A stretch of DNA of 64,000 bases from Pyrinomonadaceae bacterium (GTDB lineage Bacteria; Acidobacteriota; Blastocatellia; Pyrinomonadales; Pyrinomonadaceae), in assembly GCA_036387135.1 (NCBI GenBank), contig DASVUH010000007.1, forward strand, positions 2,105-66,104, written 5' to 3'. Of the stretch, positions 7,207 to 64,000 are shown one piece after another. Made by a program: the position numbers and the translations under genes. Position 1 is the first letter of the stretch. The number at the start of each line of letters is the position of its first letter. The notes beneath the pieces were generated by a model. That model saw nothing but the letters and a program-made list of their open reading frames with translations, searched no databases and was not told the origin of the DNA.

Positions 7207-8132
7207 ACGGAGTTTTAATCATAGACAAACCCGAAGGCTTAACGTCGCACGATGTCGTTGGCAGAGCGCGGCGCATTTTAAAAACGCGCAGCGTCGGACA
7301 CACAGGCACGCTCGACCCGTTTGCGACCGGAGTTCTGGTCGTTTTAATCGGCAAAGCGACCAGACTCGCGCAATTTCTCGACAAAGCCGAAAAAGAATAT
7401 CTGGCGACAATCCAATTCGGATATTCAACCGACACGGGCGACAGAACTGGATTGCGGATTGCGGATTGCGGATTGCGGATTGAAGAAATCGCGGCGCGAA
7501 TAACTGCGAGCAATGTTGAAAAAGCCTTAGTCAAGTTTCGCGGAGAAACGCTGCAAACTCCGCCGATGTATTCGGCAAAAAAAGTCGGCGGGAAAAAACT
7601 TTACGAATTGGCTAGAAAAGGCGTGGAAATCGAACGCCAGCCGGTCAAAATCAAAATCTCGGAATTGGAAATTGTCGAAAATTCTGAAAATCAATCCGCA
7701 ATCCGCAATCCGCAATCCGCAATTGTGAGGGTTGTGTGTTCAGCCGGAACTTACATCCGCGTTTTGGCGGAAGACATTGGAAAAGAATTGGAAACGGGCG
7801 CGCATCTGGCGGAGCTTCGCCGGACGCGAGCCGGAAGTTTCGATTTACGCCAAGCCGTGACGCTTGAAGAGCTTGAGAATCTTGCGATTGAAAATCGAAT
7901 CGGAGAAATTAAAATTTCTCCAAACGATGCTCTCGGACATTTTCCGTTCGTTGTTTTAGATGAACTCGGAATAGCCCGGACGCTCAACGGAATGAAAACG
8001 AAAGTTTCCTCAAATTTTAACGACGCAGAGTTTGTTCGTTTGTGCGATGAGAGCGGAAACCTTGTTGCCGTCGGCGTTTTCGATGAACGGGAACAAGTTA
8101 TCCAACCGCGAATTGTTTTCGGCGCGGCTTAA
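7203..8132 (+). CDS. truB: tRNA pseudouridine(55) synthase TruB. The reading frame contains two in-frame heptamer-repeat insertions (features 7449..7482 and 7692..7725).
   Basis: TTG start. Canonical TruB N-terminus GVLIIDKPEGLTSHDVV..GHTGTLDPFATGVL with the catalytic Asp. FRGETLQTPPMYSAKKVGGKKLYELAR motif. C-terminal PUA-like region. Confidence 0.9.
   Translation: MNGVLIIDKPEGLTSHDVVGRARRILKTRSVGHTGTLDPFATGVLVVLIGKATRLAQFLDKAEKEYLATIQFGYSTDTGDRTGLRIADCGLRIEEIAARITASNVEKALVKFRGETLQTPPMYSAKKVGGKKLYELARKGVEIERQPVKIKISELEIVENSENQSAIRNPQSAIVRVVCSAGTYIRVLAEDIGKELETGAHLAELRRTRAGSFDLRQAVTLEELENLAIENRIGEIKISPNDALGHFPFVVLDELGIARTLNGMKTKVSSNFNDAEFVRLCDESGNLVAVGVFDEREQVIQPRIVFGAA
7449..7482. repeat. 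(GGATTGC)n heptanucleotide tandem repeat, ~4.9 copies, in-frame inside truB (encodes GLRIADCGLRI)
   Basis: Perfect tandem copies read directly from the sequence. Confidence 0.9.
7692..7725. repeat. (CAATCCG)n heptanucleotide tandem repeat, the inverted-orientation copy of the repeat at 7449..7482, in-frame inside truB (encodes QSAIRNPQSAI)
   Basis: Reverse complement of GGATTGC repeated ~4.9 times. Lies 210 bp downstream of the first array. Confidence 0.9.
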
Positions 8133-12003: not shown

Positions 12004-14496
12004 TTATAGCAGATTTACCGGGTCAATTTCCAGATTAACCGCGCGTAAATCGCAATTTTTTTCTTCGGCTTCCGCCCAAGCCAAATCCAGAGTCTCGCGC
12101 AGCGCGCGGCGATTTTTCGCTTTTACCAAAATCTGCATCCGAAATTCGTTTTTAAGGCGCGCAAGCGGCGCGGGCGCAACGCCTAAAATGCGACAAGCGT
12201 TTTCCCGATTCGCATTTTCCAGACAAGCGCGCAAAATCTCGCCGGTTTCGAGCGCGTGAACATAATCCGGGTGATGAATCAGCAAAGACGCGAGCGCGGA
12301 AAACGGCGGATAACCGAGTTTTTGGCGAAAAGCACGCTCGGTCTTGTAAAAAGCCGCGTAATCCTGCGCGCAGGCGTGTTTTAAAGCGTAATGCTCCGGG
12401 TAAAAAGTCTGAATCAAAACTCTCCCGGCGCGCTCGCCGCGACCTGCTCGCCCGGCAACTTGCGTGATGAGCTGAAACGTGCGCTCGGCGGCGCGAAAAT
12501 CCGGCAATCCAAGACCTGCGTCAACCGAAACCACGCCGACGAGCGTCACATTCGGAAAATCGTGACCTTTGGCGAGCATCTGCGTCCCGACGAGCATATC
12601 AATTTTGCCTTCAGCGAAATCGTGCAGAGTGTCTTCCAGCAGATGTTTTTTGACGGTCGTGTCGCGGTCAACGCGCGCGATTCGCAAATCGGAAAATTTG
12701 CGGCGCAGACGGTCTTCGATTTGTTCCGTGCCTTCGCCCAGGAAATTAATATATTTGCTTTGACAAGCCGGACAAACGCGCGGCGTCTTTTGGCGAAAAT
12801 TGCAGTAATGACAAACCAGCGCGTTTTCTTTGCGGTGAAACGTAAGCGTCACGTCGCAATTCGGACAGCGCACGGTTTCGCCGCACGCGCGACACAAAAC
12901 AAATTGCGAATAGCCGCGCCGATTGAGCAAAACAATTGATTGCTCGCCGCGCTCGTGCGTTTCTTCGATTGCGGCGAGCAGCAGGGGCGATAGCGTTTCA
13001 TCTTTGCCCGTCGCTTTAAAAACCTCGCGCATATCTACGATTTCCGCTTCAGCCATCGGACGATTGCCAATTCGCGCGGGCAGCGTGAGGCGGCGATATT
13101 TTTCGCGTTCGGCGTTATAAAACGATTCGAGCGCCGGAGTTGCCGAACCCAAAATCACGACCGCCTTTGCAAAATTGGCGCGGACGACCGCAACATCTCG
13201 GGCGTGATAAAACGGCGATTCCTGCTGGCGATAAGAACCGTCGTGTTCTTCGTCAACAACGACGACGCCCAGATTTTCAAGCGGCGCGAAAACCGCCGAG
13301 CGCGTCCCGATAACGACTCGCGCCTCGCCCGCTTTGATTCTGCGCCATTCGTCGAAACGCTCGCCGACCGAAAGCGACGAATGCAAAATCGCCACCGCTT
13401 CGCCGAAAATCACGCGCAAGCGGCGCGAAAAAACCGGCGTCAAAGCGATTTCCGGGACGAGCATCAACGAGGTTTTTCCTTGCTGCAAGGCAAACTGCAT
13501 CGCGCGAATATAAATTTCGGTTTTGCCGCTGCCCGTGACGCCGTGCAGCAGAAACGCTCGATACTCATTTTCCGAAGCGGCGTGAATAATTTCCGACAAA
13601 ACTGCGGATTGTTCCGCAGTCAAAACCAAATCGTTTTTCCTGGGCAATTTGGCGTGCGCGAGCGGATCGCGGCGAACTTCGCGGACGAAGGTTTCGACGA
13701 CGCCGCGTTTTTCGAGCGTGTTGATTGCCGAAGCCGAAACTTCGGCGGCTTCGAGCAATTCAGCGAAACCGAATTCGCCTTCATTTTCAAGTAAAAACTC
13801 GATTACTCGATTTTGCCCTTCGGTTAGTTTTTTAGCGGCGTTGCCGTTTTCACTGTGGTTTTCGGGTGGAAGCAGCCGCACGGCTTTGCGGCGTTTTGGT
13901 TTCGCCTGTGTCGTCAAAACGCGGTGAAAAGATTTAATCCAATTTTTCGCTTCGAGTTCGCGGATGTTTCTTTTCGCCGCCGTTTCGCCAAAACTTTTTC
14001 CCAGCTCGCGCAGCGAAACTTCACCTTTTTCGGCAACAAGGCGCAAAATCTGAGCTTTTGCAGTTTTTAATTGTTTTTCCGAGAGCCGCAAAATCTCGTC
14101 TTTGCCAAACGGCGTCGGCTGGCAGATTTGCTCAATCGTCGCGTTGACTCCGGCGGGCAGCGCGGCTTTGATGATTTCGCCCCACGAACAACTGTAATAA
14201 TCGGCAATCCACGCCGTTAATTTTAAAATCTCCGGCGTCACAAGCGGTTCGGCGTCAACCAATTCGAGCGCGTCCTTGATTTCCGTTTCGTCAATTTCAA
14301 TTCCGCCATCCAATTCAGCGTGCAGCGCGACCGCGTAAGCCGTAATTTGTTTGTTGCGAAACGGTACGATCAAGCGCGCTCCGGCGTGCGTTCGCCCGCG
14401 CAGATTTTCCGGCAAACGATACGTAAAAGTCCGCCGCACCGGAAAAGGCACGGCGACTTCGGCATAAATCGGGCGATTGATGATTGATTCGGACAT
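12004..14496 (-). CDS. priA: Primosomal protein N-prime (replication restart helicase PriA)
   Basis: 830 aa. Walker A GVTGSGKTE and DEAD-like VVVVDEEHD. Cys-rich zinc-binding insert CRACGETVRCPNCDVTLTFH..CHYCNF..CPACQS typical of PriA. Confidence 0.9.
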   Translation of the reverse strand: MSESIINRPIYAEVAVPFPVRRTFTYRLPENLRGRTHAGARLIVPFRNKQITAYAVALHAELDGGIEIDETEIKDALELVDAEPLVTPEILKLTAWIADYYSCSWGEIIKAALPAGVNATIEQICQPTPFGKDEILRLSEKQLKTAKAQILRLVAEKGEVSLRELGKSFGETAAKRNIRELEAKNWIKSFHRVLTTQAKPKRRKAVRLLPPENHSENGNAAKKLTEGQNRVIEFLLENEGEFGFAELLEAAEVSASAINTLEKRGVVETFVREVRRDPLAHAKLPRKNDLVLTAEQSAVLSEIIHAASENEYRAFLLHGVTGSGKTEIYIRAMQFALQQGKTSLMLVPEIALTPVFSRRLRVIFGEAVAILHSSLSVGERFDEWRRIKAGEARVVIGTRSAVFAPLENLGVVVVDEEHDGSYRQQESPFYHARDVAVVRANFAKAVVILGSATPALESFYNAEREKYRRLTLPARIGNRPMAEAEIVDMREVFKATGKDETLSPLLLAAIEETHERGEQSIVLLNRRGYSQFVLCRACGETVRCPNCDVTLTFHRKENALVCHYCNFRQKTPRVCPACQSKYINFLGEGTEQIEDRLRRKFSDLRIARVDRDTTVKKHLLEDTLHDFAEGKIDMLVGTQMLAKGHDFPNVTLVGVVSVDAGLGLPDFRAAERTFQLITQVAGRAGRGERAGRVLIQTFYPEHYALKHACAQDYAAFYKTERAFRQKLGYPPFSALASLLIHHPDYVHALETGEILRACLENANRENACRILGVAPAPLARLKNEFRMQILVKAKNRRALRETLDLAWAEAEEKNCDLRAVNLEIDPVNLL

Positions 14497-14640
14497 CGGC
14501 GGCGCGAAAAAACAAGATTAGCCCAAGCTGACAAACTCGGCAAGCCGCAGCCGGATTTGAAGTTTGCCGAAATGAATTGCTGAATTTTTGAAGGAGAAGT
14601 AAAGATTACTAGGATTTATGGTACAATTAAAGGAACGGAC

Positions 14641-14662
14641 AAAAAACGGCTTTCATGAAGCC
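14641..14662 (-). terminator. Hairpin plus U-run terminator immediately 3-prime of the tRNA-like fragment (minus strand)
   Basis: ggctttcatgaagcc palindrome at 14648-14662. A6 at 14641-14646 gives U6 on the minus strand. Confidence 0.4.
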
Positions 14663-14683
14663 ATTTAAATCGTTGATTAGATT

Positions 14684-14712
14684 GGTGGAGCAGAGGAATC
14701 GAACCTCTGAGC
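14684..14712 (-). other. tRNA-like 3-prime fragment (T-arm, acceptor 3-prime strand and encoded CCA) with no complete cloverleaf. Possible relic integration site or degenerate tRNA.
   Basis: Minus-strand reading CUCAGAGGUUCGAUUCCUCUGCUCCACCA. The T-stem AGAGG/CCUCU flanks a UUCGAUU loop. The 3-prime end matches tRNA-Ala/tmRNA-type GCUCCACCA. A D-arm, anticodon arm and complementary 5-prime acceptor strand could not be fitted. Confidence 0.35.
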
Positions 14713-14907
14713 ATCCCATTGTAAATGAGCGAACAGCGTCTTAGTTTCACCGCCAAACACCGTCACCGCTCGTCATTCCCGGCGATTCTTGGCGGTAATG
14801 GGTCGAACAAACCTGCAAACCACGACAAATGAGCAGCGGCGTAAAGGACGCATTATGTTCTCGCCGCTTCAATACCGAAAGTTACAACTTTCAACAAGAG
14901 TTTAAGT

Positions 14908-15900
14908 ATGACAAAGAAAAACATTCTTTCTGGGTTCCTAGCAATTCTGTGCTTCTTGGCGAGCAATGTGCTTGCCAACGCACAAGAAAAAACTTTAGCC
15001 GCTCAAGCTGCGATTGAAGAAGTCGCAGTTTTCCAGAAATACACGAAAACACTCGCCCTGCCAGAGCGTGACCGGCGCGCGGCGTTTTCTTAAAGCGACG
15101 CGCGAGACAAAGCCGCACTCTGGCGTTTGAATCTTGCCTTATCGCTGGTAGACCGCCAAGATTTGACACTACCGCAGCAAATGGTCGTTGCCGACACAAT
15201 CGCCGCGATCACGCCCGAATCATATAGCAATCCAGACCGTGAAAGCGTCCAGAGAAAAGCAAACGCCAAAATCGAGGCAGCCGCCGCATCCGGCTTTACA
15301 AAGCGGCAAATGGGTGAGATATTTGCAACACTCGCCGCGACGCCGACCAGCTTGCGGACGCTAGAGAATTATCTAGACATCACGCAACTTGTCTGCCCGG
15401 ATAATAAAACTCTCTACCGGACTTTGAGTCTCGACGAAAAAAGCGCACTCTGGCGTTTCCAAGCTGCGCTGTTTCTGGCGACAACGGATTCGCTATCTTC
15501 CGAGCAACGTTCGGCGGTTCTCGAATGGCTCAACTTGATTAGTCCAGAATTGCTCGATAGAGCAGTCAGCGACACGGAATTAGCGAGAAAAGGCAACTTA
15601 ATTAAGGCTGCTGCGTCACGACTTGGTGAGGTTTTCACGCCAGAACAAACGGCGAACATCTCGCTTAAGCTCGGTTTGGTTGCTAATCCAAGAGGAGGTA
15701 GCGCGCGGGCGAATCAGAGAGTAAAAATGATCAAGGCATCCGGCAAAGTAGACTTAAGGGAATGCTCCTGTTCAACTAACAGCGATTGGTGTGCTGTGTG
15801 GGTGTCGCAGCAGTATTGCCATAGCGGTAACTGTACTGGGCTGCCGGACGGCTGTGGCAATCTCGGTTTTTATAGTTGCAACGGTAGTTGCAGTTACTGA
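14908..15900 (+). pseudogene. Secreted protein gene interrupted by an in-frame TAA at 15091-15093. N-terminal signal peptide, two internal ~50-aa repeats (..ALWR[LF]..AL.LA..D..) and a C-terminal Cys-rich module (10 Cys in 47 aa).
   Basis: ORFs 14908..15093 and 15127..15900 share one reading frame. Codons immediately after the stop (SDARDKAALWRLNLALSLVD) are homologous to an internal repeat (LDEKSALWRFQAALFLATTD), so the stop lies inside coding sequence. Confidence 0.45.
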
Positions 15901-15912
15901 CGAAAGGTTGGT

Positions 15913-16341
15913 TTGGTTATGTACTTAACAAGGAAAGAGAATCGAGAACTTGATTTTTGGATAGAACAGCCGAAAGGTTTGCCGTTCGCCGCTTGTCTGG
16001 CGGGCGGCGTTGCGGGCGGTTTGCTCATTCTGGTTACTGTCCTGTCAACTTTTGGGGGCTTGATGCTCTTTCCTTTTGTTTTTCTCGCGGGTGGTCTCTT
16101 TTGGCTAATGCGGGGAACGCGAATCGGTTATTTTCGCCGATTTTTGACAGGGGTGGCGGCTTTTATGCTGGCTGGAATGATTCTTTATTTTTATCTTCTC
16201 ATCTTTATCAGTCAACTCGGCTTCCAGACGCCGTTGTCGACACACGTCTGGCGAATTGGAATGATGCTCGGAATTGGCATTATCTTCAACGGCGTGATAG
16301 CGCTCGTCCAAGCCGCTTACGAAACTCGCCTTAGGAGATAG
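15913..16341 (+). CDS. Small integral membrane protein with 4 predicted TM helices, function unknown
   Basis: Four long hydrophobic stretches in 142 aa. Starts 13 nt after the Cys-rich protein gene. Confidence 0.5.
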   Translation: MVMYLTRKENRELDFWIEQPKGLPFAACLAGGVAGGLLILVTVLSTFGGLMLFPFVFLAGGLFWLMRGTRIGYFRRFLTGVAAFMLAGMILYFYLLIFISQLGFQTPLSTHVWRIGMMLGIGIIFNGVIALVQAAYETRLRR

Positions 16342-16637
16342 CGGCGGCGTTATCTTTTTCGCTTTTCTTCCTCGAATTTCCGAATAATCTCTTTCATCTG
16401 CGCCGGAGTTGCCGACGAGTTCGGGCTAAATATGTATAATCTATGGCGGTGCGGCGAAGTTGGAGCTATATCCGGCGTAGAAACAGTTTTGTAGTATTCA
16501 CATTCCAAATCTTTAATTGGAACAGGTTCAACCATATATTCGATATAATCGCGTAGGATTATCGTATCTTGCTCATATTCATCAGTAATAACCGCTTACC
16601 GCAAGCTGTTCGCGTAAATTGCCGAGTTTTCCCACCT

Positions 16638-17234
16638 CTAGGATTTTGATTCGGCGAGCGCGTCGCGTACCCGTTTCATATCTTCCCAAACCTCGCGTTT
16701 TTTCGTCGGATCGCGGAGCAAATAAGCCGGATTAAAAGTCGGCATTATTCGAGCAAAACCGCCGTAATCGTGAAACTCGCCGCGCATCTGCGAAATCGTT
16801 TTTTTCGTCTTCAAAAGAGCTTTGGTCGGAGTCGCGCCGAACGAGATAATTATTTTCGGGCGAACAACGGCGAGTTCTCGATGCAGATACGGAATAAAAA
16901 AGTTTAAGATGTCAGGCGTCAACTCGTCTCCGGCGGAAATATATTTGACGGTATTTGTCAGATAACAATCTTCGCGTTTGAGTCCAATCGAATTCAAAAT
17001 TTTAACCAGCATTTCGCCCGCCGGTCCCATAAACGGACGCCCGCTCGCCGCATCCGGCGCGCCCGGCGATTCGCCGACAACCGCCACGCGCAAACCCGCC
17101 GCGCCTTCGCCGAAAATAAACATTCGACTCTGCAATGCCGGAATCGCTTTAGCCTTTTCGAGCAATTCCTGATTCACTTCGTCAAGCGTTTCGGTCGGCT
17201 GCGTTTCTTCATCTGCAAACAAAAAATTTTGCAT
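16638..17234 (-). CDS. Uracil-DNA glycosylase family 4-like paralog lacking the Fe-S cysteine ligands and with Asn replacing the motif-B His
   Basis: Aligns to the neighbouring canonical UDG4 gene: GESPGAPDAASGRPFMGPAGEML versus GEAPGANEDAEGRPFVGRAGQLL, and FNPAYLLRDP versus FHPAYLLRDP. None of the four Cys residues is conserved. Confidence 0.7.
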   Translation of the reverse strand: MQNFLFADEETQPTETLDEVNQELLEKAKAIPALQSRMFIFGEGAAGLRVAVVGESPGAPDAASGRPFMGPAGEMLVKILNSIGLKREDCYLTNTVKYISAGDELTPDILNFFIPYLHRELAVVRPKIIISFGATPTKALLKTKKTISQMRGEFHDYGGFARIMPTFNPAYLLRDPTKKREVWEDMKRVRDALAESKS

Positions 17235-17344: not shown

Positions 17345-18370
17345 TCACTTTTGCGTCCGAGCAAGTTCGTCGCGCACTTTTTTCATATCTTCCCACGTTT
17401 CCCGCTTTTTCGACGGGTCGCGCAAAAGATAAGCCGGGTGAAAAGTCGGCATCACTTTAATGCCGTAATAATCCTGAAATTTACCGCGAATTTTGGTGAT
17501 TCCTTCTTTCGTGTCAAGCAGATTCTGCGTCGCCGTGTTGCCCATTACAACGATGATTTCGGGGCGCGCGATGGAGATTTCGCGCATTAAAAATTGGCGG
17601 CAGGTTCTGGCTTCCTGAATCGTCGGCGTGCGGTTTTGCGGTGGGCGGCACCGGTTGACGTTGCCGATTAAAACTTCCTCGCGTTTTAAACCGATGGCTT
17701 CGATGATTTTGGTCAAAAGCTGTCCGGCGCGCCCGACAAAGGGGCGTCCCTCGGCGTCTTCGTTCGCGCCCGGCGCTTCGCCGACAAAAAGAATGCGCCC
17801 TGTCCAATTGCCTTCCGTGTGGACGATTTTCGTTCTGCCCTGATAAAGCGGGCAGCGCACGCAATCGCCGATGTCGGCGCGGATTTCCTCGACAGTTTCG
17901 TTCGATTCCGGGAGCGTTGCGGATTCCGGCGTCAGATCGCCAAAAAGTGAACCTTCCATTTTTGTTTCCTCTGATTTTTTTGCAAAATTCTGCGGCGGCG
18001 CGACGTTTATTGGCTCTGCAATTTTTTTTAGAATTTCCGGCGCACTTGATTCTTCCTCGCGCGCTGCAACCGACGGCGAGATTTTCGACAATTTTGTCGC
18101 TTCCAATTTATCGCGGAAAGAATTTAAACGAGGCAGCGGCTTTGTTTGGGGCGCAGCAACAGGTTTCGGCGGCGCGGTTTTGTTCACGGGCGGCACATAA
18201 GCCTGAAAAGCGGGCGGCGCGGCTCTTAAAGTCTGAGGCTGTGTTTCTTCCGTTTTTTCCGCGACAAAATCGGTTTCCAATCCTGCAACGCCCAATTCTT
18301 GCGCAAACGCTAAATGCTCGCGCACGTCCGCAAGCAATTCCAAAAAATCTTCGCGCAAACTTTCAGCCAT
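17345..18370 (-). CDS. Uracil-DNA glycosylase family 4 (4Fe-4S type) with a ~170-aa Pro/Ala-rich low-complexity N-terminal extension
   Basis: C-terminal domain carries CVRCPLY, GEAPGANEDAEGRPFVGRAGQLL, NRCRPP..ARTCRQ (four Cys) and FHPAYLLR. Confidence 0.85.
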   Translation of the reverse strand: MAESLREDFLELLADVREHLAFAQELGVAGLETDFVAEKTEETQPQTLRAAPPAFQAYVPPVNKTAPPKPVAAPQTKPLPRLNSFRDKLEATKLSKISPSVAAREEESSAPEILKKIAEPINVAPPQNFAKKSEETKMEGSLFGDLTPESATLPESNETVEEIRADIGDCVRCPLYQGRTKIVHTEGNWTGRILFVGEAPGANEDAEGRPFVGRAGQLLTKIIEAIGLKREEVLIGNVNRCRPPQNRTPTIQEARTCRQFLMREISIARPEIIVVMGNTATQNLLDTKEGITKIRGKFQDYYGIKVMPTFHPAYLLRDPSKKRETWEDMKKVRDELARTQK

Positions 18371-53050: not shown

Positions 53051-55237
53051 ATGAAAACACTTCGCTTGGCAAATATTTTTCGATTTACCTTTTTTGCTCT
53101 GTTATGGATTGCATTTGCACAAGCCGCGGCTCAACCTTTGGCACAACCGCCGGCGCCGCAACCCTCTCCTGTCGAAGTTAAGATTGATGCAAAGATTTTC
53201 GATTCTTACATTGGACAATATGAAGACGCAGCTAATCTCGGAGGAACAGTTTTCTCATTTTTCCGTGAAGGCGAAAAGTTTTACCTGCAAGTCACGAATC
53301 AGGACAAACTTGAGATTTTCCCCACAGCCGAAAACAAGTTTTTCTTAAAAGTTGCTCCTGCTTCAGCGGAGTTTGTGCGCGATGCCGCAACGGGGCGCAT
53401 CACCAATATGATCTGGCGACAGGGCGGCAGGGATTTTACCACCAAGCGCATTGCCGACCAGCCCGCCAAAGATACGCGCATTCAATTTAAACGCACCGAA
53501 GCGATGATTTCGATGCGCGACGGTATTAAGCTTTTTACGGTTATTTTTACGCCAGAAAACCAAACCGAGTCGCTTCCTGTTTTAATCGAGCGCTCGCCTT
53601 ACGGCGTCAAAGGTTGGAATTCGAGCGGAGTGAACGGTTCGCGACCTGAACTCGTTAAAGACGGCTATGTTTTTGTCTTTCAGGATATTCGCGGGCGGTA
53701 TGAGTCCGAAGGCGAATTTGTGATGGTGCGCCCGCCCGTAAATCATCGCGACCCGAAAGCCATTGATGAAAGCACGGACACTTACGACACTATTGAGTAT
53801 TTGCTTAAAAACGTCGCCAACAATAACGGGCGAGTCGGCATTTACGGCGTTTCGTATGGCGGTTGGCTGTCGTCGGTCGCGCTCATTGATCCGCATCCGG
53901 CGCTCAAAACCTCTTCGCCGCAGGCTCCAATCGGCGATCTTTGGATGGGCGATGATTTATTTCATCACGGCGCTTTTCGTCAGACTTACGCCCACGATTG
54001 GGCTTATCTGCTCGAAACGGTCAAAGGCGAGGGCGAAGGCGCAGTCAAGCTCGATAAACTGGACGCTTTTGATTGGTATTTCGATTTAAAAACCGTTGGG
54101 GCGCTGGTCAACAAGCTCGGCAACAAATCCGCTACCTGGAATAATGCCGTCGCTCATCCGAACTGGGATTCTTATTGGCAGCAACGCGCAGTGCCGAATT
54201 ATTTAAAAGAAACGAGCATTCCGACGCTCATTGTCGGCGGCTGGTGGGATCAGGAAGATTTATACGGACCGCTTGTAACTTACAAAACTCTGGAAAAAAC
54301 CGACCGCGACAATCAGGTTTTTCTCGTGATGGGTCCCTGGAATCACGGCGGATGGGGCGGGCGTGGTCGCAGATTGGGCGCGATTGATTTCGGCAGCGAC
54401 ACTGGCAGATATTTTCGCAGCGAAATACAAGCCCCGTGGTTTGCTTATCATCTCAAAGGCAAAGGCGCTTTAAAGCTTGCTGAAGCTACAATTTTCCAGT
54501 CCGGTTCAAACAAATGGATGACTTACGATTCCTGGACGCCAAAGCAAAATCTGCAAAAACGCGAATTGTATTTGCAGACCGGCGGAAAGGTTTCGTTTCA
54601 GAAACCGGCAAACAAAGGCGAGGAGTTTGACACATACGTTTCAGACCCGGCAAATCCGATTCCGTATCGCAAACGACCGATTTTAGGGACTTACGCGCAA
54701 GGCTCATCCTGGTTTACGTGGCTATCCGACGACCAGCGTTTTCTCTCTGACCGCAAAGATGTTCTTTCGTGGCAATCGGACGTTTTGAGCGAAGATGTTA
54801 CGATTACGGGCGACATCTTTGCGCATCTTTTTGCTTCAACGACTGGTTCGGACAGCGATTGGGTAGTGAAATTGATTGACGTTTACCCGGCTGAATATCC
54901 TGCGGATGCGAAAATGGCAAATTATCAATTTATGGTCGCCAGCGAGATTTTTCGCGGTCGCTATCGCCGCAGTTTTGAAAAGGCGGAAGCGATTGAGCCT
55001 AACAAAGTCAGCGAATACACGGTTGATCTGCGCGGCAACAATTACACGTTCAAAAAAGGTCATCGAATCATGGTGCAAGTACAAAGCTCATGGTTTCCGC
55101 TTTATGACCGCAATCCGCAAAAGTTTGTTGAAAACATCTTTCTCGCCAAAGAAAGCGATTATCAAAGAGCAAGCCAGCGCGTTTATCATTCGTCAAAATA
55201 TCCTTCCCATATCAGCGTTTCTGTTGCTGCCCGGTGA
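53051..55237 (+). CDS. CocE/NonD family hydrolase (S15 Xaa-Pro dipeptidyl-peptidase-like), secreted
   Basis: Signal peptide. GVSYGGWLS nucleophile elbow. ~730 aa with a C-terminal beta-sandwich-like region. Start taken at ATG 53051. Confidence 0.8.
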   Translation: MKTLRLANIFRFTFFALLWIAFAQAAAQPLAQPPAPQPSPVEVKIDAKIFDSYIGQYEDAANLGGTVFSFFREGEKFYLQVTNQDKLEIFPTAENKFFLKVAPASAEFVRDAATGRITNMIWRQGGRDFTTKRIADQPAKDTRIQFKRTEAMISMRDGIKLFTVIFTPENQTESLPVLIERSPYGVKGWNSSGVNGSRPELVKDGYVFVFQDIRGRYESEGEFVMVRPPVNHRDPKAIDESTDTYDTIEYLLKNVANNNGRVGIYGVSYGGWLSSVALIDPHPALKTSSPQAPIGDLWMGDDLFHHGAFRQTYAHDWAYLLETVKGEGEGAVKLDKLDAFDWYFDLKTVGALVNKLGNKSATWNNAVAHPNWDSYWQQRAVPNYLKETSIPTLIVGGWWDQEDLYGPLVTYKTLEKTDRDNQVFLVMGPWNHGGWGGRGRRLGAIDFGSDTGRYFRSEIQAPWFAYHLKGKGALKLAEATIFQSGSNKWMTYDSWTPKQNLQKRELYLQTGGKVSFQKPANKGEEFDTYVSDPANPIPYRKRPILGTYAQGSSWFTWLSDDQRFLSDRKDVLSWQSDVLSEDVTITGDIFAHLFASTTGSDSDWVVKLIDVYPAEYPADAKMANYQFMVASEIFRGRYRRSFEKAEAIEPNKVSEYTVDLRGNNYTFKKGHRIMVQVQSSWFPLYDRNPQKFVENIFLAKESDYQRASQRVYHSSKYPSHISVSVAAR

Positions 55238-55277
55238 TAGAAGGAAATAATGTAAAAACAGTCTAAAAAAGACCTTT

Positions 55278-56660
55278 TTGGGAGGTGAAACTGTAGCTAC
55301 TGCCGATACTTCAAAACTCGCTAAACGCCTGGGACTTTTTGATTCCACCATGATCGTGATGGGCGGAATTATCGGTTCCGGGATTTTTATCAATCCTTAT
55401 GTTGTCGCTCAGCACGTTCAAACCCCATTCTTAATTTTAGGAGCGTGGCTGCTCGGTGGTTTGATCGCACTTTTAGGTGCATTTATCTACGCCGAGCTTG
55501 CAGACAGATGCGCTGATGTCGGAGGACAATACGCCTACTTGCGGGAGGCTTATCATCCGTCGGTAGCATTTATTTACGGATGGGCTTTATTGCTGGTTAC
55601 GCAAACCGGCGGAATGGCTGCGGTCGCCATTACTTTTTCCCGGTACTTTTTGGAAATCACTCACGCTCCTTTACCTGATTGGTTTATCGCAACGCTAACT
55701 CTCGGAGGATTGACGATCATCAACTGTCTAGGCGTTCGGGCAGGGAGCAGCGTTCAAAATGCCTTAATGGTTCTAAAGATTTTAGCCATTCTTGCACTTA
55801 TTGTATGCGGCTTTTTCTTTGTATCCGAACCGGCAAGCTCATTAGGAAACACGCCGGATCGCTCTCTCTCATTAAATTTATTTACTGCAATGGGAGCAGC
55901 TTTGATTCCTGTGATGTTCGCTTACGGCGGATGGCAAACAGCAAGTTTTGTGTCGGGTGAAATGCGCAACCCCCGCCGTGATTTGGCGCGCGGTCTTTTA
56001 ATCGGAGTTATCGGAGTTATCTTACTGTACACATTGGTTAATCTCGTTTGCCTTTATGCGCTCGGTCCCGAACGATTGGCAGCAACCACTACTCCCGCCT
56101 CAACAATTATGCGAATTGCCTTTGGCGAGCGCGGAGCGGCGTTGATTGCTTTAGGAATAGCCATTTCTACTCTGGGTTTTTTAAGTCAGGGAATGTTGAC
56201 AGCCCCGCGCGTTTATTTTGCGATGGCAAAAGATAAACTTTTCTTTCAAAGCGTCGCAAAACTCAACGAACGCACTCACGCTCCCGTTCTCGCAATTGCC
56301 TTGCAGGGAGCGCTGGCGATAATCATTGCGCTTTCGGGCAAATATGAACAAATCCTGAATTATGTTGTCTCAATTGATTTTATTTGGTTTGGATTAACGG
56401 CAGCTTCGCTTTTTGTCTTTCGCAGCCGCGCGACTCGCTTGAATAAACTCGAAACTCACGAAAACATTGAGAACACCGGAACAACATATAATCGCGTTCC
56501 CGGTCATCCATTTACAACCGCCTTGTTTACTGCCGCCTGCGCTTTGATTGTTTTCAGCACTTTTTATAATTATCCTTCAAACAGTGTGATCGGTTTGATT
56601 ATTGTTATTGCCGGAATACCTGTTTATTTCTTCTGGCGCAGGCGGAGTCAAGATAAATGA
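55278..56660 (+). CDS. APC family amino acid permease
   Basis: LFDSTMIVMGGIIGSGIF signature and 12 TM-like segments. TTG start is uncertain. Confidence 0.85.
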   Translation: MGGETVATADTSKLAKRLGLFDSTMIVMGGIIGSGIFINPYVVAQHVQTPFLILGAWLLGGLIALLGAFIYAELADRCADVGGQYAYLREAYHPSVAFIYGWALLLVTQTGGMAAVAITFSRYFLEITHAPLPDWFIATLTLGGLTIINCLGVRAGSSVQNALMVLKILAILALIVCGFFFVSEPASSLGNTPDRSLSLNLFTAMGAALIPVMFAYGGWQTASFVSGEMRNPRRDLARGLLIGVIGVILLYTLVNLVCLYALGPERLAATTTPASTIMRIAFGERGAALIALGIAISTLGFLSQGMLTAPRVYFAMAKDKLFFQSVAKLNERTHAPVLAIALQGALAIIIALSGKYEQILNYVVSIDFIWFGLTAASLFVFRSRATRLNKLETHENIENTGTTYNRVPGHPFTTALFTAACALIVFSTFYNYPSNSVIGLIIVIAGIPVYFFWRRRSQDK

Positions 56661-57775
56661 CAAGCAATTTCTCTCAAGTTCCGAGTTCAAATCGAGTAAT
56701 GAGTTCGGAGTATATGCAATGGGCTAAAACTAATTTACAAGCCCGCTATAATCTCGCCTCAAGCGGTCTGATGAATTTTCCGTTGTCGGAACTGCCGGCT
56801 ACATTAGAAGATTTGGAATTGAGCGGTTCGAGCTATTACGGTTATGAACCTCTCCAAAAGGCTCTGGCTGCTAAATGCGGCGTTCCTGTCGAATGCGTTG
56901 TTGCCGCAACCGGCACATCAATGGCGAATCATCTGGTGATGGCTGCGCTTCTCGAACCGGGAGATGAAGTGCTGATTGAACAGCCCACCTATGAGCTTCT
57001 GATAAGCACAGCCCGATATTTACGCGCTGATATTAAAAGGTTTATTCGTCCCGCCGAATCGGGGTTCGGCATTGAACCGGAAGAAGTCGCTCGTCAGGTT
57101 AGTTCGCGAACAAAGCTAATCGTTTTAACAAATCTGCATAATCCATCATGCGCGTTTACGTCCAATGAAACGCTCGGAAAGATTGGCGATATTGCGCGTG
57201 AAATCGGTGCTCGCGTCCTTGTTGATGAAGTTTATCTGGATGCTTTATTTGAAGAAACGCAGCCTGGTGCCTTTCACTTGGGTAAGGAATTCATTGTGAC
57301 CAGCAGCTTAACTAAAGTGTACGGGCTGAGCGGACTGCGTTGCGGATGGATATTGGCTGAGCCGGAGCTTGCCGGAAAACTTTGGCGTTTAAATGATCTT
57401 TTCGGCGTTATTCCCGCCCATCCTGCTGAAAGGCTCAGTTGCATTGCGCTTGCAAATCTCAATCGAATTGCAGATCGCGCGCGCAGTATTATCGAAACTA
57501 ACAGTAAAACGCTCAATTCATTTTATAAGTCCTGCGACCGTCTCGAATGGACGGAACATAAATTTGGCACGGTCTCTTTCCCGCGTTTGAAGCACGGAAG
57601 CGTTGATGCTTTAACCGCGCTTCTTCTGGAAAAATATGAAACATCAATCGTACCGGGAAGATTTTTTGAAATGCCTCAACACCTCAGAATTGGAATAGGG
57701 AATGACAATTCGACATTAATAGAAGGTTTGGAAAGATTGGAAATGGCGCTCAACCAACGAGAACAAAGCTTATAA
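56657..57775 (+). CDS. PLP-dependent aminotransferase (class I/II fold)
   Basis: SLTKVYGLSGLRCGW (PLP Lys). Fold-type I architecture. 4-nt overlap with the permease gene. Confidence 0.75.
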   Translation: MTSNFSQVPSSNRVMSSEYMQWAKTNLQARYNLASSGLMNFPLSELPATLEDLELSGSSYYGYEPLQKALAAKCGVPVECVVAATGTSMANHLVMAALLEPGDEVLIEQPTYELLISTARYLRADIKRFIRPAESGFGIEPEEVARQVSSRTKLIVLTNLHNPSCAFTSNETLGKIGDIAREIGARVLVDEVYLDALFEETQPGAFHLGKEFIVTSSLTKVYGLSGLRCGWILAEPELAGKLWRLNDLFGVIPAHPAERLSCIALANLNRIADRARSIIETNSKTLNSFYKSCDRLEWTEHKFGTVSFPRLKHGSVDALTALLLEKYETSIVPGRFFEMPQHLRIGIGNDNSTLIEGLERLEMALNQREQSL

Positions 57776-58001
57776 ATAAAACAGCTTCTTGCCGGAGCGT
57801 TTCGGAATCGGGTAAGAGAATGTGGAAGCTTAAATAAGAATTCAGACTTGTTTTTAAATTTTTATTTCAGTGATTTCACTTTTTTATTGCCATAAAGCCA
57901 ATTTTACGTTAATTTCCTTAAAGAGATTTGTTTTCCCAAATCTCGATTTGTCCGCTCTTTTCTGCTAAAGTTTCTCGCACACCGAATAAAGTTCTCGCTC
58001 G

Positions 58002-59591
58002 ATGCAAAATTCCTGGGTTAAAAACAGTTTCGCCAAATTTTGGCAGCCTTTGCTGCTTGCCGCGACTTTGCTGTTTTTGTACGCGCCCGCTTTAAAGCTG
58101 CTCGCGCAAACCTGGTGGACGGACGAAAACTATTCGCACGGGCTTTTGATTCCGTTTTTGATTGGCTTTCTGCTCTGGTTTGAAAAGGACGAGCTGGGAA
58201 AACTGGAAAAACGCCCGGCTTTTCCGGCGGGCGGAATCACTGTTTTGGCGGCGATGCTTCTTTTGCTCGTCGGAATTTTGGGCGCAGAGCTTTTTACGCA
58301 GAGATTTTCGCTTTTGCTGATGCTCGCCGGAATTACGATTTATTTTTTCGGCTGGCAAATTTTGAAAAAGCACGTCGTGCCGTTTGTTTTGCTCGCGCTG
58401 GCGATTCCGATGCCGACGATTCTTTTTAACAAAATCGCATTTCCGCTTCAGCTTTTGGCGACGGATTTGGCGGTTTGGGGAATTCGGCTGTTCGGAATTC
58501 CGGCGGCGAAATTCGGTAACGTCATCGAATTGCTGCCGCGCGGCGCTTCGCAATCAATCTGGCTCGAAGTCGTCGAGGCGTGCAGCGGGATTCGCTCTTT
58601 GATGACGCTCGTCACGCTCGCGCTCGTATATGCTTATTTTACGAGCCGACGGAGGAATTTCGCGTCTTTAAAAAGTTTTGATTTGTGGCGCGCGGCAATT
58701 TTAATGTTTGCCGCATTGCCGATTGCGGTTTTAACCAACGGCGTGCGCGTCTCCGCGACCGGGATTCTGGCTTATTACTACGGCGGTGAAACCGCGCAGG
58801 GCTTTTTGCACGGCGCTTCGGGCTGGCTGGTTTATGTCGCGGCTTTGCTGCTGCTGCTGTTTGTCGGAAAAATCCTGGATTTAAGCCGGAGACAGGGAGA
58901 AATCAGCAAAACTGATTTTCACTCCTTTTCTCCTTTTTTCCTCTTCTCCTCTTCTTTTAAATTCTGGCTTTTGCTGCTGGTTTTGCTAACGGGCGGCGCG
59001 CTGATTCATTGGCGCGAAGCGGCAGGTGAAATTCGTCCCGACAGAAAACTGTTGAAAGATTTTCCGGCGAAAATCGGCGATTGGCGGCAAAACGGCGCAG
59101 ACCAGCGTTTTGAAACTGAAGTTGAAACGGTTCTCGGCTCGGACGATTATTTGATGCGCGATTATTTTGTCCCGGCTTCGGGCAAAGGCGCGAATCTTTA
59201 CATCGGTTATTATGAAACTCAGCGCACGGGCGCGACTTATCACAGCCCGCGCAACTGTCTGCCCGGTTCGGGCTGGACGATGACCGAAAGCGAGCCGGTG
59301 GAAATCAGTTTGCCCGACGGGCAGAAATTCGTCGCCAACAATTATGTAATTGAAAACAATCGCTCAAAAGCCTTGATGATTTACTGGTATCAAGGGCGCG
59401 GGCGATTTGTCGCAAATGAATATAAAGACAAGTTTTTCACCGTTTTAGACAGCATTTCGCGCCGCCGCTCGGACGGCGCGATGATTCGCGTCGTCGTTTC
59501 GATTGACAAATCCGAACAAGACGCCCTGGAAACCGCTAAAAACTTGGCTGCCGGAGCAGCCGCCGACCTCCACGAATTTGTGCCAAATTAA
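58002..59591 (+). CDS. Exosortase (EpsH/Xrt family) fused to a C-terminal EpsI-family domain. Contains a CT-rich repeat insertion.
   Basis: N-terminus WWTDENYSHGLLIP. Catalytic region EVVEACSGIRSL and TNGVRVSATG. The C-terminal ~190 aa resemble EpsI. Confidence 0.8.
   Translation: MQNSWVKNSFAKFWQPLLLAATLLFLYAPALKLLAQTWWTDENYSHGLLIPFLIGFLLWFEKDELGKLEKRPAFPAGGITVLAAMLLLLVGILGAELFTQRFSLLLMLAGITIYFFGWQILKKHVVPFVLLALAIPMPTILFNKIAFPLQLLATDLAVWGIRLFGIPAAKFGNVIELLPRGASQSIWLEVVEACSGIRSLMTLVTLALVYAYFTSRRRNFASLKSFDLWRAAILMFAALPIAVLTNGVRVSATGILAYYYGGETAQGFLHGASGWLVYVAALLLLLFVGKILDLSRRQGEISKTDFHSFSPFFLFSSSFKFWLLLLVLLTGGALIHWREAAGEIRPDRKLLKDFPAKIGDWRQNGADQRFETEVETVLGSDDYLMRDYFVPASGKGANLYIGYYETQRTGATYHSPRNCLPGSGWTMTESEPVEISLPDGQKFVANNYVIENNRSKALMIYWYQGRGRFVANEYKDKFFTVLDSISRRRSDGAMIRVVVSIDKSEQDALETAKNLAAGAAADLHEFVPN
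58922..58957. repeat. CT-rich tandem repeat tract (ctcctttt / cctcttc units) in-frame between the exosortase and EpsI domains (encodes FSPFFLFSSSF)
   Basis: Read directly. Similar to the coaBC tract at 19063..19097. Confidence 0.7.
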
Positions 59592-59769
59592 CAAATCCGT
59601 GCTACAATGCCGCAAAATCAAAACTCTTTCGCGCTACTCCCAAGCGCTTGATTTTTGGGATGTTTCAACGATTCGCAATATTCCCTTAATGCCGACAATT
59701 TTCTAATCGGTTGTAAAAATAAATAAAATTACGAGTTTTAAGTTTTAAATCCAAACGAATTAGCCCAGA

Positions 59770-62076: not shown

Positions 62077-62103
62077 AGATTTTGAGGTTCGCGTAAAACG
62101 AAA

Positions 62104-62271
62104 ATGTTATCGGCAGTTTTCACAATTTTGTTAGACATTAAGCTGCAAAGCGTTGACTTTAATGAAGATGCGTGGGTGCTGATGGCGGGCGTCGGGTTGA
62201 TAATTTTGGTGTTTGTTCTGCGGCGCTGGTTCCGCGGCGGCAAAAAAGATGAAACAAACTTGCTGTTTTAA
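62104..62271 (+). CDS. Possible small single-TM protein (55 aa) between the PrsT-like and Wzz-like genes
   Basis: MLSAVFTILLDIKLQSVDFNEDAWVLMAGVGLIILVFVLRRWFRGGKKDETNLLF. Below the ORF-track cutoff and found by eye. Hydrophobic helix followed by RRWFRGGKK. Confidence 0.3.
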   Translation: MLSAVFTILLDIKLQSVDFNEDAWVLMAGVGLIILVFVLRRWFRGGKKDETNLLF

Positions 62272-62284
62272 CTGGTAAAAAAAC

Positions 62285-63946: not shown

Positions 63947-64000
63947 ACGATGAACGATGAACGATGAATGATGAACGGATTTTAATTCATCATTCATCGT
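63947..64000. repeat. (ACGATGA)n heptamer array followed by its inverted copy (ttcatcattcatcg), forming a 14-bp hairpin directly after the Wzz-like stop codon
   Basis: cgatgaatgatgaa (63963-63976) and ttcatcattcatcg (63986-63999) are exact reverse complements. The window ends here. Confidence 0.8.

What the first reader, a model, noticed from the sequence alone, without database searches (positions are those of the whole stretch)
14641..14712. Orphan tRNA-like 3-prime end (T-arm, acceptor 3-prime strand and CCA) with its own terminator but no foldable cloverleaf
The minus strand reads ..CUCAGAGGUUCGAUUCCUCUGCUCCACCA, which has a perfect T-stem/loop and a tRNA-Ala/tmRNA-type GCUCCACCA end. It is followed by a hairpin and U6. 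Upstream I could not build a D-arm, an anticodon arm or a complementary 5-prime acceptor strand. I also found no tmRNA 5-prime end or tag ORF. tRNA and tmRNA 3-prime ends are classic integration sites that get duplicated on insertion. This fragment may be the relic att site of an island covering the adjacent Cys-rich protein/4-TM pair and the AT-rich segment 16342-16637.
Basis: partly seen in the sequence, partly recalled or inferred. Interest (0 to 1): 0.5.

Follow-up and report, generated by a model that had tools for sequence, protein, structure and literature searches.

The report
Decayed tRNA gene remnant beside bacteriocin cassette
This is a broken, non-functional leftover of a tRNA gene at the edge of a 2.1-kb strain-specific bacteriocin cassette in a soil acidobacterium; it is an ordinary scar of gene traffic, not a new RNA.

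Summary
The minus strand at 14709-14683 has a perfect T arm followed by CUCC-ACCA, then a 9-bp hairpin and U6 (14666-14641). ARAGORN and Rfam find no tRNA or tmRNA anywhere in the window.

It is tRNA-derived, not chance. My own tRNA covariance model gives one hit in 64 kb, at 14683-14751(-), scoring 22.3 bits. Background in 206 kb of relatives peaks at 10.5 bits, and real tRNAs score 47-76.

- An anticodon-arm-like hairpin (CUCA/UUUACAA/UGGG, Val-UAC) sits at the canonical spacing (p about 0.005).
- The 3' acceptor strand is 2 nt short.

There is no 5' acceptor strand and no real D arm.

The host is a Pyrinomonadaceae MAG. The remnant lies inside a 2,089-nt segment (14549-16637) between a UDG gene and priA. 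This segment is absent from close relatives, which have an empty site or a different insert. It carries a fulvocin C-related bacteriocin, a 4-TM protein and a small secreted ORF.

I found no intact partner tRNA within about 59 kb upstream, no integrase, no flanking repeat and no tRNA at the empty sites. The "relic att site of an island" reading is therefore only partly supported.

Verdict: a pseudo-tRNA or tDNA fragment, a known kind of feature, of low interest.

The parts
14683..14751 (-). Pseudo-tRNA (decayed tRNA gene remnant), full extent as aligned to a tRNA covariance model
   Evidence: Model R1 gives 22.3 bits here, its only hit in the 64-kb window. ARAGORN calls it a 'possible pseudogene tRNA-Val(tac)' only when thresholds are lowered to 75%.
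14714..14730 (-). Anticodon-arm-like hairpin: stem CUCA/UGGG (4 of 5 pairs), loop UUUACAA with U33, anticodon UAC and A37
   Evidence: Seen in the sequence and in the ARAGORN and CM alignments. Chance probability at canonical spacing is about 0.005.
14691..14709 (-). Perfect T arm: CAGAGG / UUCGAUU / CCUCUG
14683..14690 (-). Truncated 3' acceptor strand plus ACCA (CUCC-A-CCA). It is 2 nt shorter than canonical and has no 5' partner upstream.
   Evidence: The CM alignment shows a 2-nt deletion. No complementary 5' strand exists within 1.1 kb.
14641..14666 (-). Intrinsic-terminator-like hairpin (9 bp, 5-nt loop) ending in U6
   Evidence: Folds at -10.3 kcal/mol, z = -2.4. Not listed by the consensus scan. 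Absent from relatives.
14549..16637 (.). Strain-specific 2,089-nt segment between the UDG stop codon and the conserved priA upstream block. It holds the remnant and the bacteriocin cassette.
   Evidence: blastn and tblastn synteny with L002, L005, L006, L164 and L165.
14908..15093 (+). 61-aa ORF with a signal-peptide-like N terminus, first gene of the cassette
   Evidence: called as a gene. No family hits.
15127..15900 (+). Cys-rich protein: bacteriocin fulvocin C-related
   Evidence: NCBIfam NF033852, E = 4e-29, 102 bits against a cutoff of 35. NCBI gives an identical MAG protein the same name.
15913..16341 (+). 142-aa four-TM protein. An immunity role is inferred from position only.
   Evidence: No family hits.
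16342..16637 (.). Spacer of the variable segment, GC about 0.45-0.47, with an uncalled 61-aa ORF at 16350-16535(-)
14497..14548 (-). Conserved priA upstream block (TTGCCG-N17-TAATCT, 14543-14515). This is the first sequence shared again with relatives. A promoter role is inferred only.
   Evidence: Alignments with L002, L005 and L165.

Best explanation
The feature is a molecular fossil: a decayed tRNA gene, or displaced tRNA-gene fragment. Its anticodon arm (Val-UAC-like), variable loop, T arm and ACCA end are still recognisable. It has lost the 5' acceptor strand and a proper D arm, and 2 nt of the 3' acceptor strand.

It is not ancestral to this locus. It lies in a 2.09-kb strain-specific segment that replaced the short UDG-priA spacer. 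That segment carries a fulvocin C-related bacteriocin gene, a 4-TM protein gene and a small secreted-protein ORF.

The most likely history (inferred) is that the tRNA piece arrived with the mobile DNA that delivered the cassette. It could be the tRNA-derived part of an attachment site, or a passenger or neighbouring tRNA gene from the donor. It then decayed while the integration machinery was lost.

It cannot make a tRNA or tmRNA today. The hairpin-U6 after it is the remnant's own former terminator. That terminator may now stop minus-strand read-through before the priA upstream block (inferred).
For: Shown:
- tRNA ancestry. The CM hit of 22.3 bits is unique in the window. Background is at most 10.7 bits in 220 kb of relatives.
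- Score class. The hit scores like an orphan tDNA-like fragment (L094, 21.6 bits) or the tRNA-like domain of a real tmRNA (L118, 18.1 bits). Real tRNAs score 47-76 bits.
- The anticodon arm sits at canonical spacing, p about 0.005.
- Non-function. ARAGORN and Rfam are negative. There is no 5' acceptor partner, a 2-nt deletion, and no promoter-like site upstream on the minus strand.
- Strain specificity. Relatives have empty or differently filled sites, with no tRNA-like sequence there.
- The cargo is a bacteriocin-type cassette.
- The sequence is reproduced in three assemblies.

From the literature: displaced 3' tDNA fragments that begin at the anticodon or T region are the normal by-product of integrase-mediated insertion. 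In Islander, 3760 of 3919 islands have a 3' fragment, and 2083 have an anticodon-centred attP (PMC4383910). Such fragments are common in prokaryotic genomes (PMC9897764).
Against: - No intact tRNA or tmRNA with this 3' end was found. None is in the window, in 10 kb beyond it, in 185,579 GTDB species representatives or in IMG/VR. None is in the JGI metagenome set either, though that set lacks even the source contig.
- There is no integrase and no flanking direct repeat.
- The parent tRNA and the transfer mechanism are therefore unidentified.
- The 5' part of the CM alignment (GGUGA, weak D stem) is weak. I cannot say whether a whole gene decayed in place or only a 3' fragment ever existed.
- All three assemblies probably come from the same reads, so there is no population or conservation evidence.
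Confidence: 0.68

Rival explanations
1. This is a classical in-situ att relic. The fragment would be the displaced 3' end of a tRNA or tmRNA gene that once stood here as attB. It would mark one end of an island whose other end is the regenerated intact gene.
For: The fragment covers the part of a tRNA that integrases typically duplicate, from the anticodon arm to CCA (PMC4383910). It keeps a terminator, as an original chromosomal 3' end would. The adjacent 2.09 kb is strain-specific.
Against: No intact tRNA or tmRNA lies upstream on the same strand through window position 64000, or in 10 kb beyond. That stretch is syntenic housekeeping DNA in relatives: CoaBC and UDG, out to 21-29 kb. There is no repeat at the other edge and no integrase. 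The empty sites in L165, L005 and L006, and the alternative insert in L002 and L164, contain no tRNA gene.
Confidence: 0.07
2. The fragment derives from the 3' end of the tmRNA gene (ssrA) rather than a tRNA gene. The T arm plus GCUCCACCA would then be a relic of integration into ssrA.
For: GCUCCACCA is the usual tmRNA/tRNA-Ala ending. Rfam's best local hit is a tmRNA T arm. Rfam-confirmed tmRNAs with the same short spacing, CC-NNN-GCUCCACCA, exist in metagenomes (L088, L115, L119-L121). L118 shows a tmRNA followed by orphan 3'-end copies. The R1 score is similar to that of a tmRNA tRNA-like domain.
Against: An anticodon-arm-like hairpin with U33, UAC and A37 sits at the tRNA spacing, and tmRNA has no such arm. 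The GGAC motif that precedes the T stem in the tmRNAs retrieved is absent. There is no tag ORF or 5' domain.
Confidence: 0.1
3. It is a functional small RNA or cis element that mimics the 3' half of a tRNA. It could be a decoy or substrate for tRNA-binding enzymes, or a structured 3' end protecting a transcript, expressed with its own terminator.
For: The T arm and ACCA are intact and followed by a terminator-like hairpin. The 2-nt-short layout recurs in other orphan tRNA-like elements in soil metagenomes (family A).
Against: There is no homologue at this locus in any relative, so no conservation or covariation can be shown. No promoter-like site lies upstream. The wider region folds no better than shuffles, z = -0.0 to -0.6. 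No minihelix is possible without a 5' strand.
Confidence: 0.06
4. It is a chance resemblance in non-coding DNA.
For: The T-loop 11-mer alone is expected about 0.3 times per window. The first stage scanned many windows.
Against: The 6-bp stem, the ACCA at the right offset, the anticodon arm at canonical spacing (p about 0.005) and the unique CM hit 12 bits above background are jointly very unlikely. None of 9 chance T-loop motifs in 906 kb had a stem plus CCA.
Confidence: 0.05

Closest known systems
Displaced tDNA fragments (attL/attR remnants) of integrase-mobilised genomic islands and prophages, as catalogued by Islander (PMC4383910; Williams 2002, cited there)
   Same: An orphan 3' portion of a tRNA gene that runs from the anticodon arm to CCA, is non-functional, and adjoins strain-specific accessory DNA.
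   Different: No intact partner gene, integrase or second att copy is detectable. The empty site in relatives has no tRNA gene. The fragment carries a 2-nt deletion, so it is not an exact duplicate of any functional 3' end.
tRNA pseudogenes and partial non-canonical tRNA genes in prokaryotes (PMC9897764)
   Same: It is detected only below normal thresholds, keeps the T and anticodon arms, and has lost the acceptor and D arms.
   Different: Those described are mostly still called by tRNAscan-SE. This one is missed by ARAGORN and Rfam at default settings.
tmRNA 3' tRNA-like domain
   Same: T arm followed by GCUCCACCA, with a comparable score against a tRNA model (18.1 versus 22.3 bits).
   Different: There is no 5' acceptor strand, tag ORF or pseudoknots. 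An anticodon-like arm is present.

Membership tests
Functional tRNA gene | 7-bp acceptor stem formed by the 5' and 3' ends | tested here: not met
   No complementary 5' strand exists within 1.1 kb. The CM alignment needs 4-nt and 2-nt deletions and 2 mismatches in 5 pairs.
Functional tRNA gene | D arm with a conserved G18G19 loop | tested here: not met
   The CM and ARAGORN alignments show a rudimentary 3-pair stem and no GG.
Functional tRNA gene | Anticodon arm (5-bp stem, 7-nt loop, U33, R37) and T arm (GTTCRANYC) | tested here: met
   The anticodon arm has 4 of 5 pairs, U33, UAC and A37. The T arm is perfect.
Functional tRNA gene | Detection by ARAGORN or Rfam RF00005 at normal thresholds, and a score in the range of real tRNAs | tested here: not met
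   R1 gives 22.3 bits against 47-76 bits for real tRNAs.
tmRNA (one-piece or permuted) | 5' acceptor strand pairing with the GCUCC end, a tag reading frame, and a match to the Rfam tmRNA models | tested here: not met
   Nothing tmRNA-like lies downstream of the CCA before priA. The tmRNA calls at 75% ARAGORN thresholds do not include this 3' end and are noise.
Displaced tDNA fragment marking a genomic island (Islander criterion) | An intact tDNA in the same replicon sharing the fragment's sequence | tested here: not met
   None is in the window or 10 kb beyond. The rest of the genome is not testable with these tools.
Displaced tDNA fragment marking a genomic island (Islander criterion) | A tyrosine or serine integrase gene between the two att copies | tested here: not met
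   The ORFs of 14549-16637 have no Pfam hit, and their only NCBIfam hit is to a bacteriocin family.
Displaced tDNA fragment marking a genomic island (Islander criterion) | Adjacent DNA absent from close relatives | tested here: met
Displaced tDNA fragment marking a genomic island (Islander criterion) | The fragment is the 3' part of the gene, beginning at the anticodon or T region | tested here: inconclusive
   Clear tRNA similarity starts at the anticodon stem. The CM also aligns a weak 5' part, so a whole decayed gene is not excluded.
Intrinsic terminator | Stable hairpin immediately followed by a U tract | tested here: met
   9-bp hairpin plus U6, z = -2.4. The stem has only 3 G-C pairs, and the consensus scan did not list it.
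Fulvocin C-related bacteriocin (NCBIfam NF033852), neighbouring gene | Score above the curated cutoff | tested here: met
   102.3 bits against a cutoff of 35.

The most novel reading that the evidence does not exclude
The remnant is not dead. It would be transcribed as a short tRNA-3'-half mimic (anticodon hairpin, T arm, ACCA, own terminator). It might then act as a decoy or substrate for tRNA-recognising enzymes, or as protection against a tRNA-targeting activity linked to the neighbouring bacteriocin cassette. It may belong to a wider, undescribed class of orphan 'short-acceptor' tRNA-like elements, like the recurrent soil family seen in L085-L125.
Probability: 0.04. Interest if true: 0.55.

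Novelty: new member of a known kind. Interest (0 to 1): 0.13.

Why it matters
It matters little beyond annotation. The feature flags a small hot spot of accessory-gene replacement between UDG and priA in Pyrinomonadaceae. It also dates the bacteriocin cassette as a recent acquisition. It shows that standard tRNA and tmRNA finders miss such remnants. It would matter only if the fragment proved to be expressed and functional.

Tried and rejected
- **tmRNA, standard or permuted.** Rejected on ARAGORN, Rfam, the 5'-strand search and reading downstream of the CCA.
- **Parent tRNA by exact and degenerate scans.** The exact 22-mer has no match in GTDB representatives, IMG/VR or JGI metagenomes. With N{0,3} inserted before GCTCCACCA it hits only two jumbo-phage tRNA-Tyr genes, which is coincidental. 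The T-arm 19-mer occurs in 32 viral contigs, none sharing the flanks. The anticodon-loop-plus-T-arm pattern has no hit in viral contigs.
- **A conserved family with the short-acceptor layout.** The scan returned 43 metagenome loci that are a mixture of tmRNAs, odd tRNAs and unrelated orphan families. None is homologous to this locus.
- **Homologues of the cassette, to trace its origin.** The word-based search finds only the identical protein.
- **Terminal inverted repeats.** An 11-nt perfect inverted repeat lies near both edges (14533-14543 and 16619-16629). My own estimate is that about 0.7 such pairs arise by chance in 2.4 kb. One arm lies in sequence shared with relatives. I rejected it as evidence of a transposon.
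- **tRNA-His origin.** tRNA-His lies downstream of priA in Terriglobia/Bryobacterales, and the fragment allows a CCAC-C register. The similarity is only generic.
- **Gene neighbourhood of the family A orphans.** No integrase was found, only a MarC-family protein. I did not pursue it.

Full report
**What is there.** On the minus strand the window reads ...GCUCAUUUACAAUGGGAUGCUCAGAGGUUCGAUUCCUCUGCUCCACCA, ending at 14683. The T arm is perfect: stem CAGAGG/CCUCUG at 14709-14704 and 14696-14691, with loop UUCGAUU. It is followed by CUCC-A-CCA. Sixteen nucleotides further on, a 9-bp hairpin (14666-14644) runs into U6 (to 14641). It folds at -10.3 kcal/mol with z = -2.4 against shuffles. The simple terminator scan did not list it.

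ARAGORN finds no tRNA or tmRNA in the whole 64-kb window. Rfam finds nothing at gathering thresholds. In permissive mode on 14300-15300, Rfam finds only the 17-nt T arm, at 12.4 bits. No 5' strand able to pair with GCUCC, CUGCUCC or GCUCCAC exists within 1.1 kb upstream.

**Two corrections.** First, an anticodon-arm-like hairpin does exist at exactly the canonical distance from the T stem. It spans 14730-14714, with stem CUCA/UGGG and loop UUUACAA carrying U33, anticodon UAC (Val) and A37. ARAGORN reports 14684-14749 as a "possible pseudogene tRNA-Val(tac)" once its thresholds are lowered to 75%. Such an arm at that spacing arises by chance with probability about 0.005.

Second, only five nucleotides separate the T stem from ACCA, where a tRNA has seven. 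The end is therefore not an exact copy of any functional tRNA-Ala or tmRNA end.

**Is it more than chance?** I built a covariance model (R1) from 31 type-I tRNAs found in the fetched loci. Its only hit in the window is 14683-14751(-), at 22.3 bits with a rough E of about 5e-4.

| Sequence searched with R1 | Score (bits) |
|---|---|
| This element, 14683-14751(-) | 22.3 |
| Best hit in about 220 kb of related acidobacterial DNA without tRNAs | 10.7 |
| Real tRNAs | 47-76 |
| tRNA-like domain of a genuine tmRNA (L118) | 18.1 |
| Unrelated orphan tRNA-like fragment (L094) | 21.6 |

The alignment keeps the anticodon and T arms. It needs a 2-nt deletion in the 3' acceptor strand, a 4-nt deletion on the 5' side, and a rudimentary D arm without GG. 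The bare T-loop 11-mer occurs nine times outside tRNA genes in 906 kb of related DNA, never with a stem and CCA. The element is tRNA-derived and scores like a fragment or pseudogene.

**Reproducibility.** Three assemblies of the locus are identical over 431 nt: ENA k141_50364, JGI Ga0334952_000042 and a Logan contig of SRR10954969. The 2-nt shortfall is therefore not an assembler artefact, though the underlying reads are probably the same.

**Context.** The contig is a metagenome assembly of a Pyrinomonadaceae bacterium (Acidobacteriota, Blastocatellia). The conserved local gene order is CoaBC - UDG - UDG - priA - methyltransferase - M28 peptidase.

| Relative | PriA identity | Between UDG and priA |
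|---|---|---|
| L165 | 91% | 270 nt of spacer |
| L005 | 76% | about 190 nt of spacer |
| L006 | 62% | UDG directly adjacent to priA |
| L002 | 93% | different insert encoding a 269-aa secreted protein |
| L164 | 95% | different insert encoding a 278-aa secreted protein |

In the window, homology to relatives ends at the UDG stop codon (16638). It resumes at about 14548, at a conserved block GCGGCTTGCCGAG...GGCTAATCTTGTT just upstream of priA. The 2,089 nt in between (14549-16637) are unique to this strain. They contain:
- the tRNA remnant and its hairpin on the minus strand;
- a 61-aa signal-peptide-like ORF on the plus strand;
- a 257-aa Cys-rich protein that is a fulvocin C-related bacteriocin (NCBIfam NF033852, E = 4e-29; same name in NCBI);
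- a 142-aa 4-TM protein, with an immunity role inferred only;
- a 296-nt spacer at GC 0.45-0.47, so only mildly AT-rich.

The UDG-priA spacer is evidently a small hot spot for accessory-gene replacement in this lineage.

**Testing the att-relic idea.** The Islander principle defines an island by a regenerated tDNA and its displaced fragment (PMC4383910). Under that principle I expect an intact gene upstream on the same strand, an integrase, and a tRNA gene at the empty site of relatives. None is found.
- There is no tRNA or tmRNA from 14752 to the window end, or in a further 10 kb. That DNA is syntenic housekeeping sequence in relatives.
- No repeat of the fragment lies at the other edge.
- The cassette ORFs include no integrase.
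- The empty or alternative sites hold nothing tRNA-like.

The exact 22-mer has no match in 185,579 GTDB species representatives, in IMG/VR or in the JGI contig set. The JGI negative is weak, because that set does not even contain the JGI copy of this locus. Degenerate scans found only coincidental tRNAs and unrelated orphans.

The part of a tRNA that survives is exactly what integrases usually duplicate, from the anticodon arm to CCA. In Islander, 3760 of 3919 islands have a 3' fragment, and about half have an anticodon-centred attP (PMC4383910). An att-type origin is therefore plausible. It must have occurred elsewhere, or the rest has since been deleted.

**Most likely explanation.** This is a dead tRNA-gene remnant that came in with the DNA that installed the bacteriocin cassette. 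It may have been part of an attachment site, or a neighbouring or passenger tRNA gene of the donor. It is now decaying. Steps shown: tRNA ancestry, inability to form a tRNA or tmRNA, strain specificity of the surrounding 2.09 kb, and the bacteriocin cargo. Steps inferred: co-arrival with the cassette, origin by site-specific recombination, and residual terminator activity upstream of priA.

**Rivals.**
- A tmRNA-derived fragment. Some support comes from the GCUCCACCA end, and from Rfam-confirmed tmRNAs with the same short spacing. The Val-like anticodon arm disfavours it.
- A functional tRNA-half mimic. There is no conservation, no promoter and no special folding stability.
- Chance, which is jointly very unlikely.
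- A classical in-situ att pair, which is refuted for this contig.

**Novelty and interest.** Orphan tDNA fragments and tRNA pseudogenes are a well-known kind of feature (PMC4383910, PMC9897764). This is a new instance with no unusual property beyond being invisible to default tRNA finders. Interest is low.

Noticed in passing
L085, L093, L094, L096, L100, L102, L104, L110, L123, L125 (e.g. L094 198-254, minus strand): A recurrent orphan tRNA-Ala(UGC)-like 3' half in soil metagenomes: ..CCUUUGCAAGCAGGGGGUCAGGGUUCGAGUCCCCUGCUCCACCA, with a conserved downstream flank ggcaaacacccgaagatgatcaacgcggaatcccc. It gets no Rfam gathering hit and no ARAGORN call, and scores 21.6 bits with my tRNA model. 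In L100 the next gene downstream is a MarC-family membrane protein, and no integrase was seen.
   Followed up: partly
L118 7187-7911: A full tmRNA (Rfam, 193 bits) is followed about 90 nt later by a perfect repeat of its last 21 nt. A second orphan T-arm + GGCUCCACCA copy sits at 7889-7911. This is a textbook series of att duplications at ssrA.
   Followed up: partly
L088, L115, L119, L120, L121: Five tmRNAs confirmed by Rfam (99-163 bits) are missed by ARAGORN at default settings. All have unusually short spacing between the T loop and GCUCCACCA. This could be real variation or indel errors in the assemblies.
   Followed up: partly
window 14549-16637 versus L002 3403-4960, L164 1385-2697 and L165 3231-3500: The UDG-priA spacer is a replacement hot spot in this Pyrinomonadaceae lineage. 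It holds a bacteriocin cassette here and a 269/278-aa secreted CarboxypepD_reg-like protein in two relatives. In a third relative it is a short AT-rich spacer.
   Followed up: partly
window 14533-14543 and 16619-16629: A perfect 11-nt inverted repeat (AAACTCGGCAA / TTGCCGAGTTT) sits just inside or at both edges of the variable segment. It is compatible with chance, and one arm overlaps the conserved priA upstream block.
   Followed up: partly
window 16638-17234 and 17345-18370 (minus strand): Two tandem family-4-type uracil-DNA glycosylase paralogues (about 45% identical). The upstream one has an N-terminal extension of about 140 aa. The pair is conserved in L002, L005 and L165.
   Followed up: no
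L014, L016, L017, L022, L023, L025, L027-L030, L032, L052 (about 40-70 nt after priA): In Terriglobia and Bryobacterales a tRNA-His(GUG) gene lies immediately downstream of priA. This linkage is absent in the Pyrinomonadales loci.
   Followed up: no
L127, L128, L133-L137, L141, L143, L146, L149-L151 (IMG/VR 3300045988 contigs of about 50 kb): A family of phage tRNA-like genes shares the identical T arm CAGAGGTTCGATTCCTCTG. ARAGORN calls them inconsistently, as Leu(tag), Gln(ttg) or nothing, with the anticodon at position 27. They may be suppressor or non-canonical tRNAs.
   Followed up: no
window about 55000-64000 and L159: An exosortase (EpsH/EpsI), TPR, Wzz/GNVR, tyrosine-kinase-like ATPase, sugar-transferase and polysaccharide-export gene cluster. 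This looks like an exopolysaccharide locus of the PEP-CTERM type.
   Followed up: no
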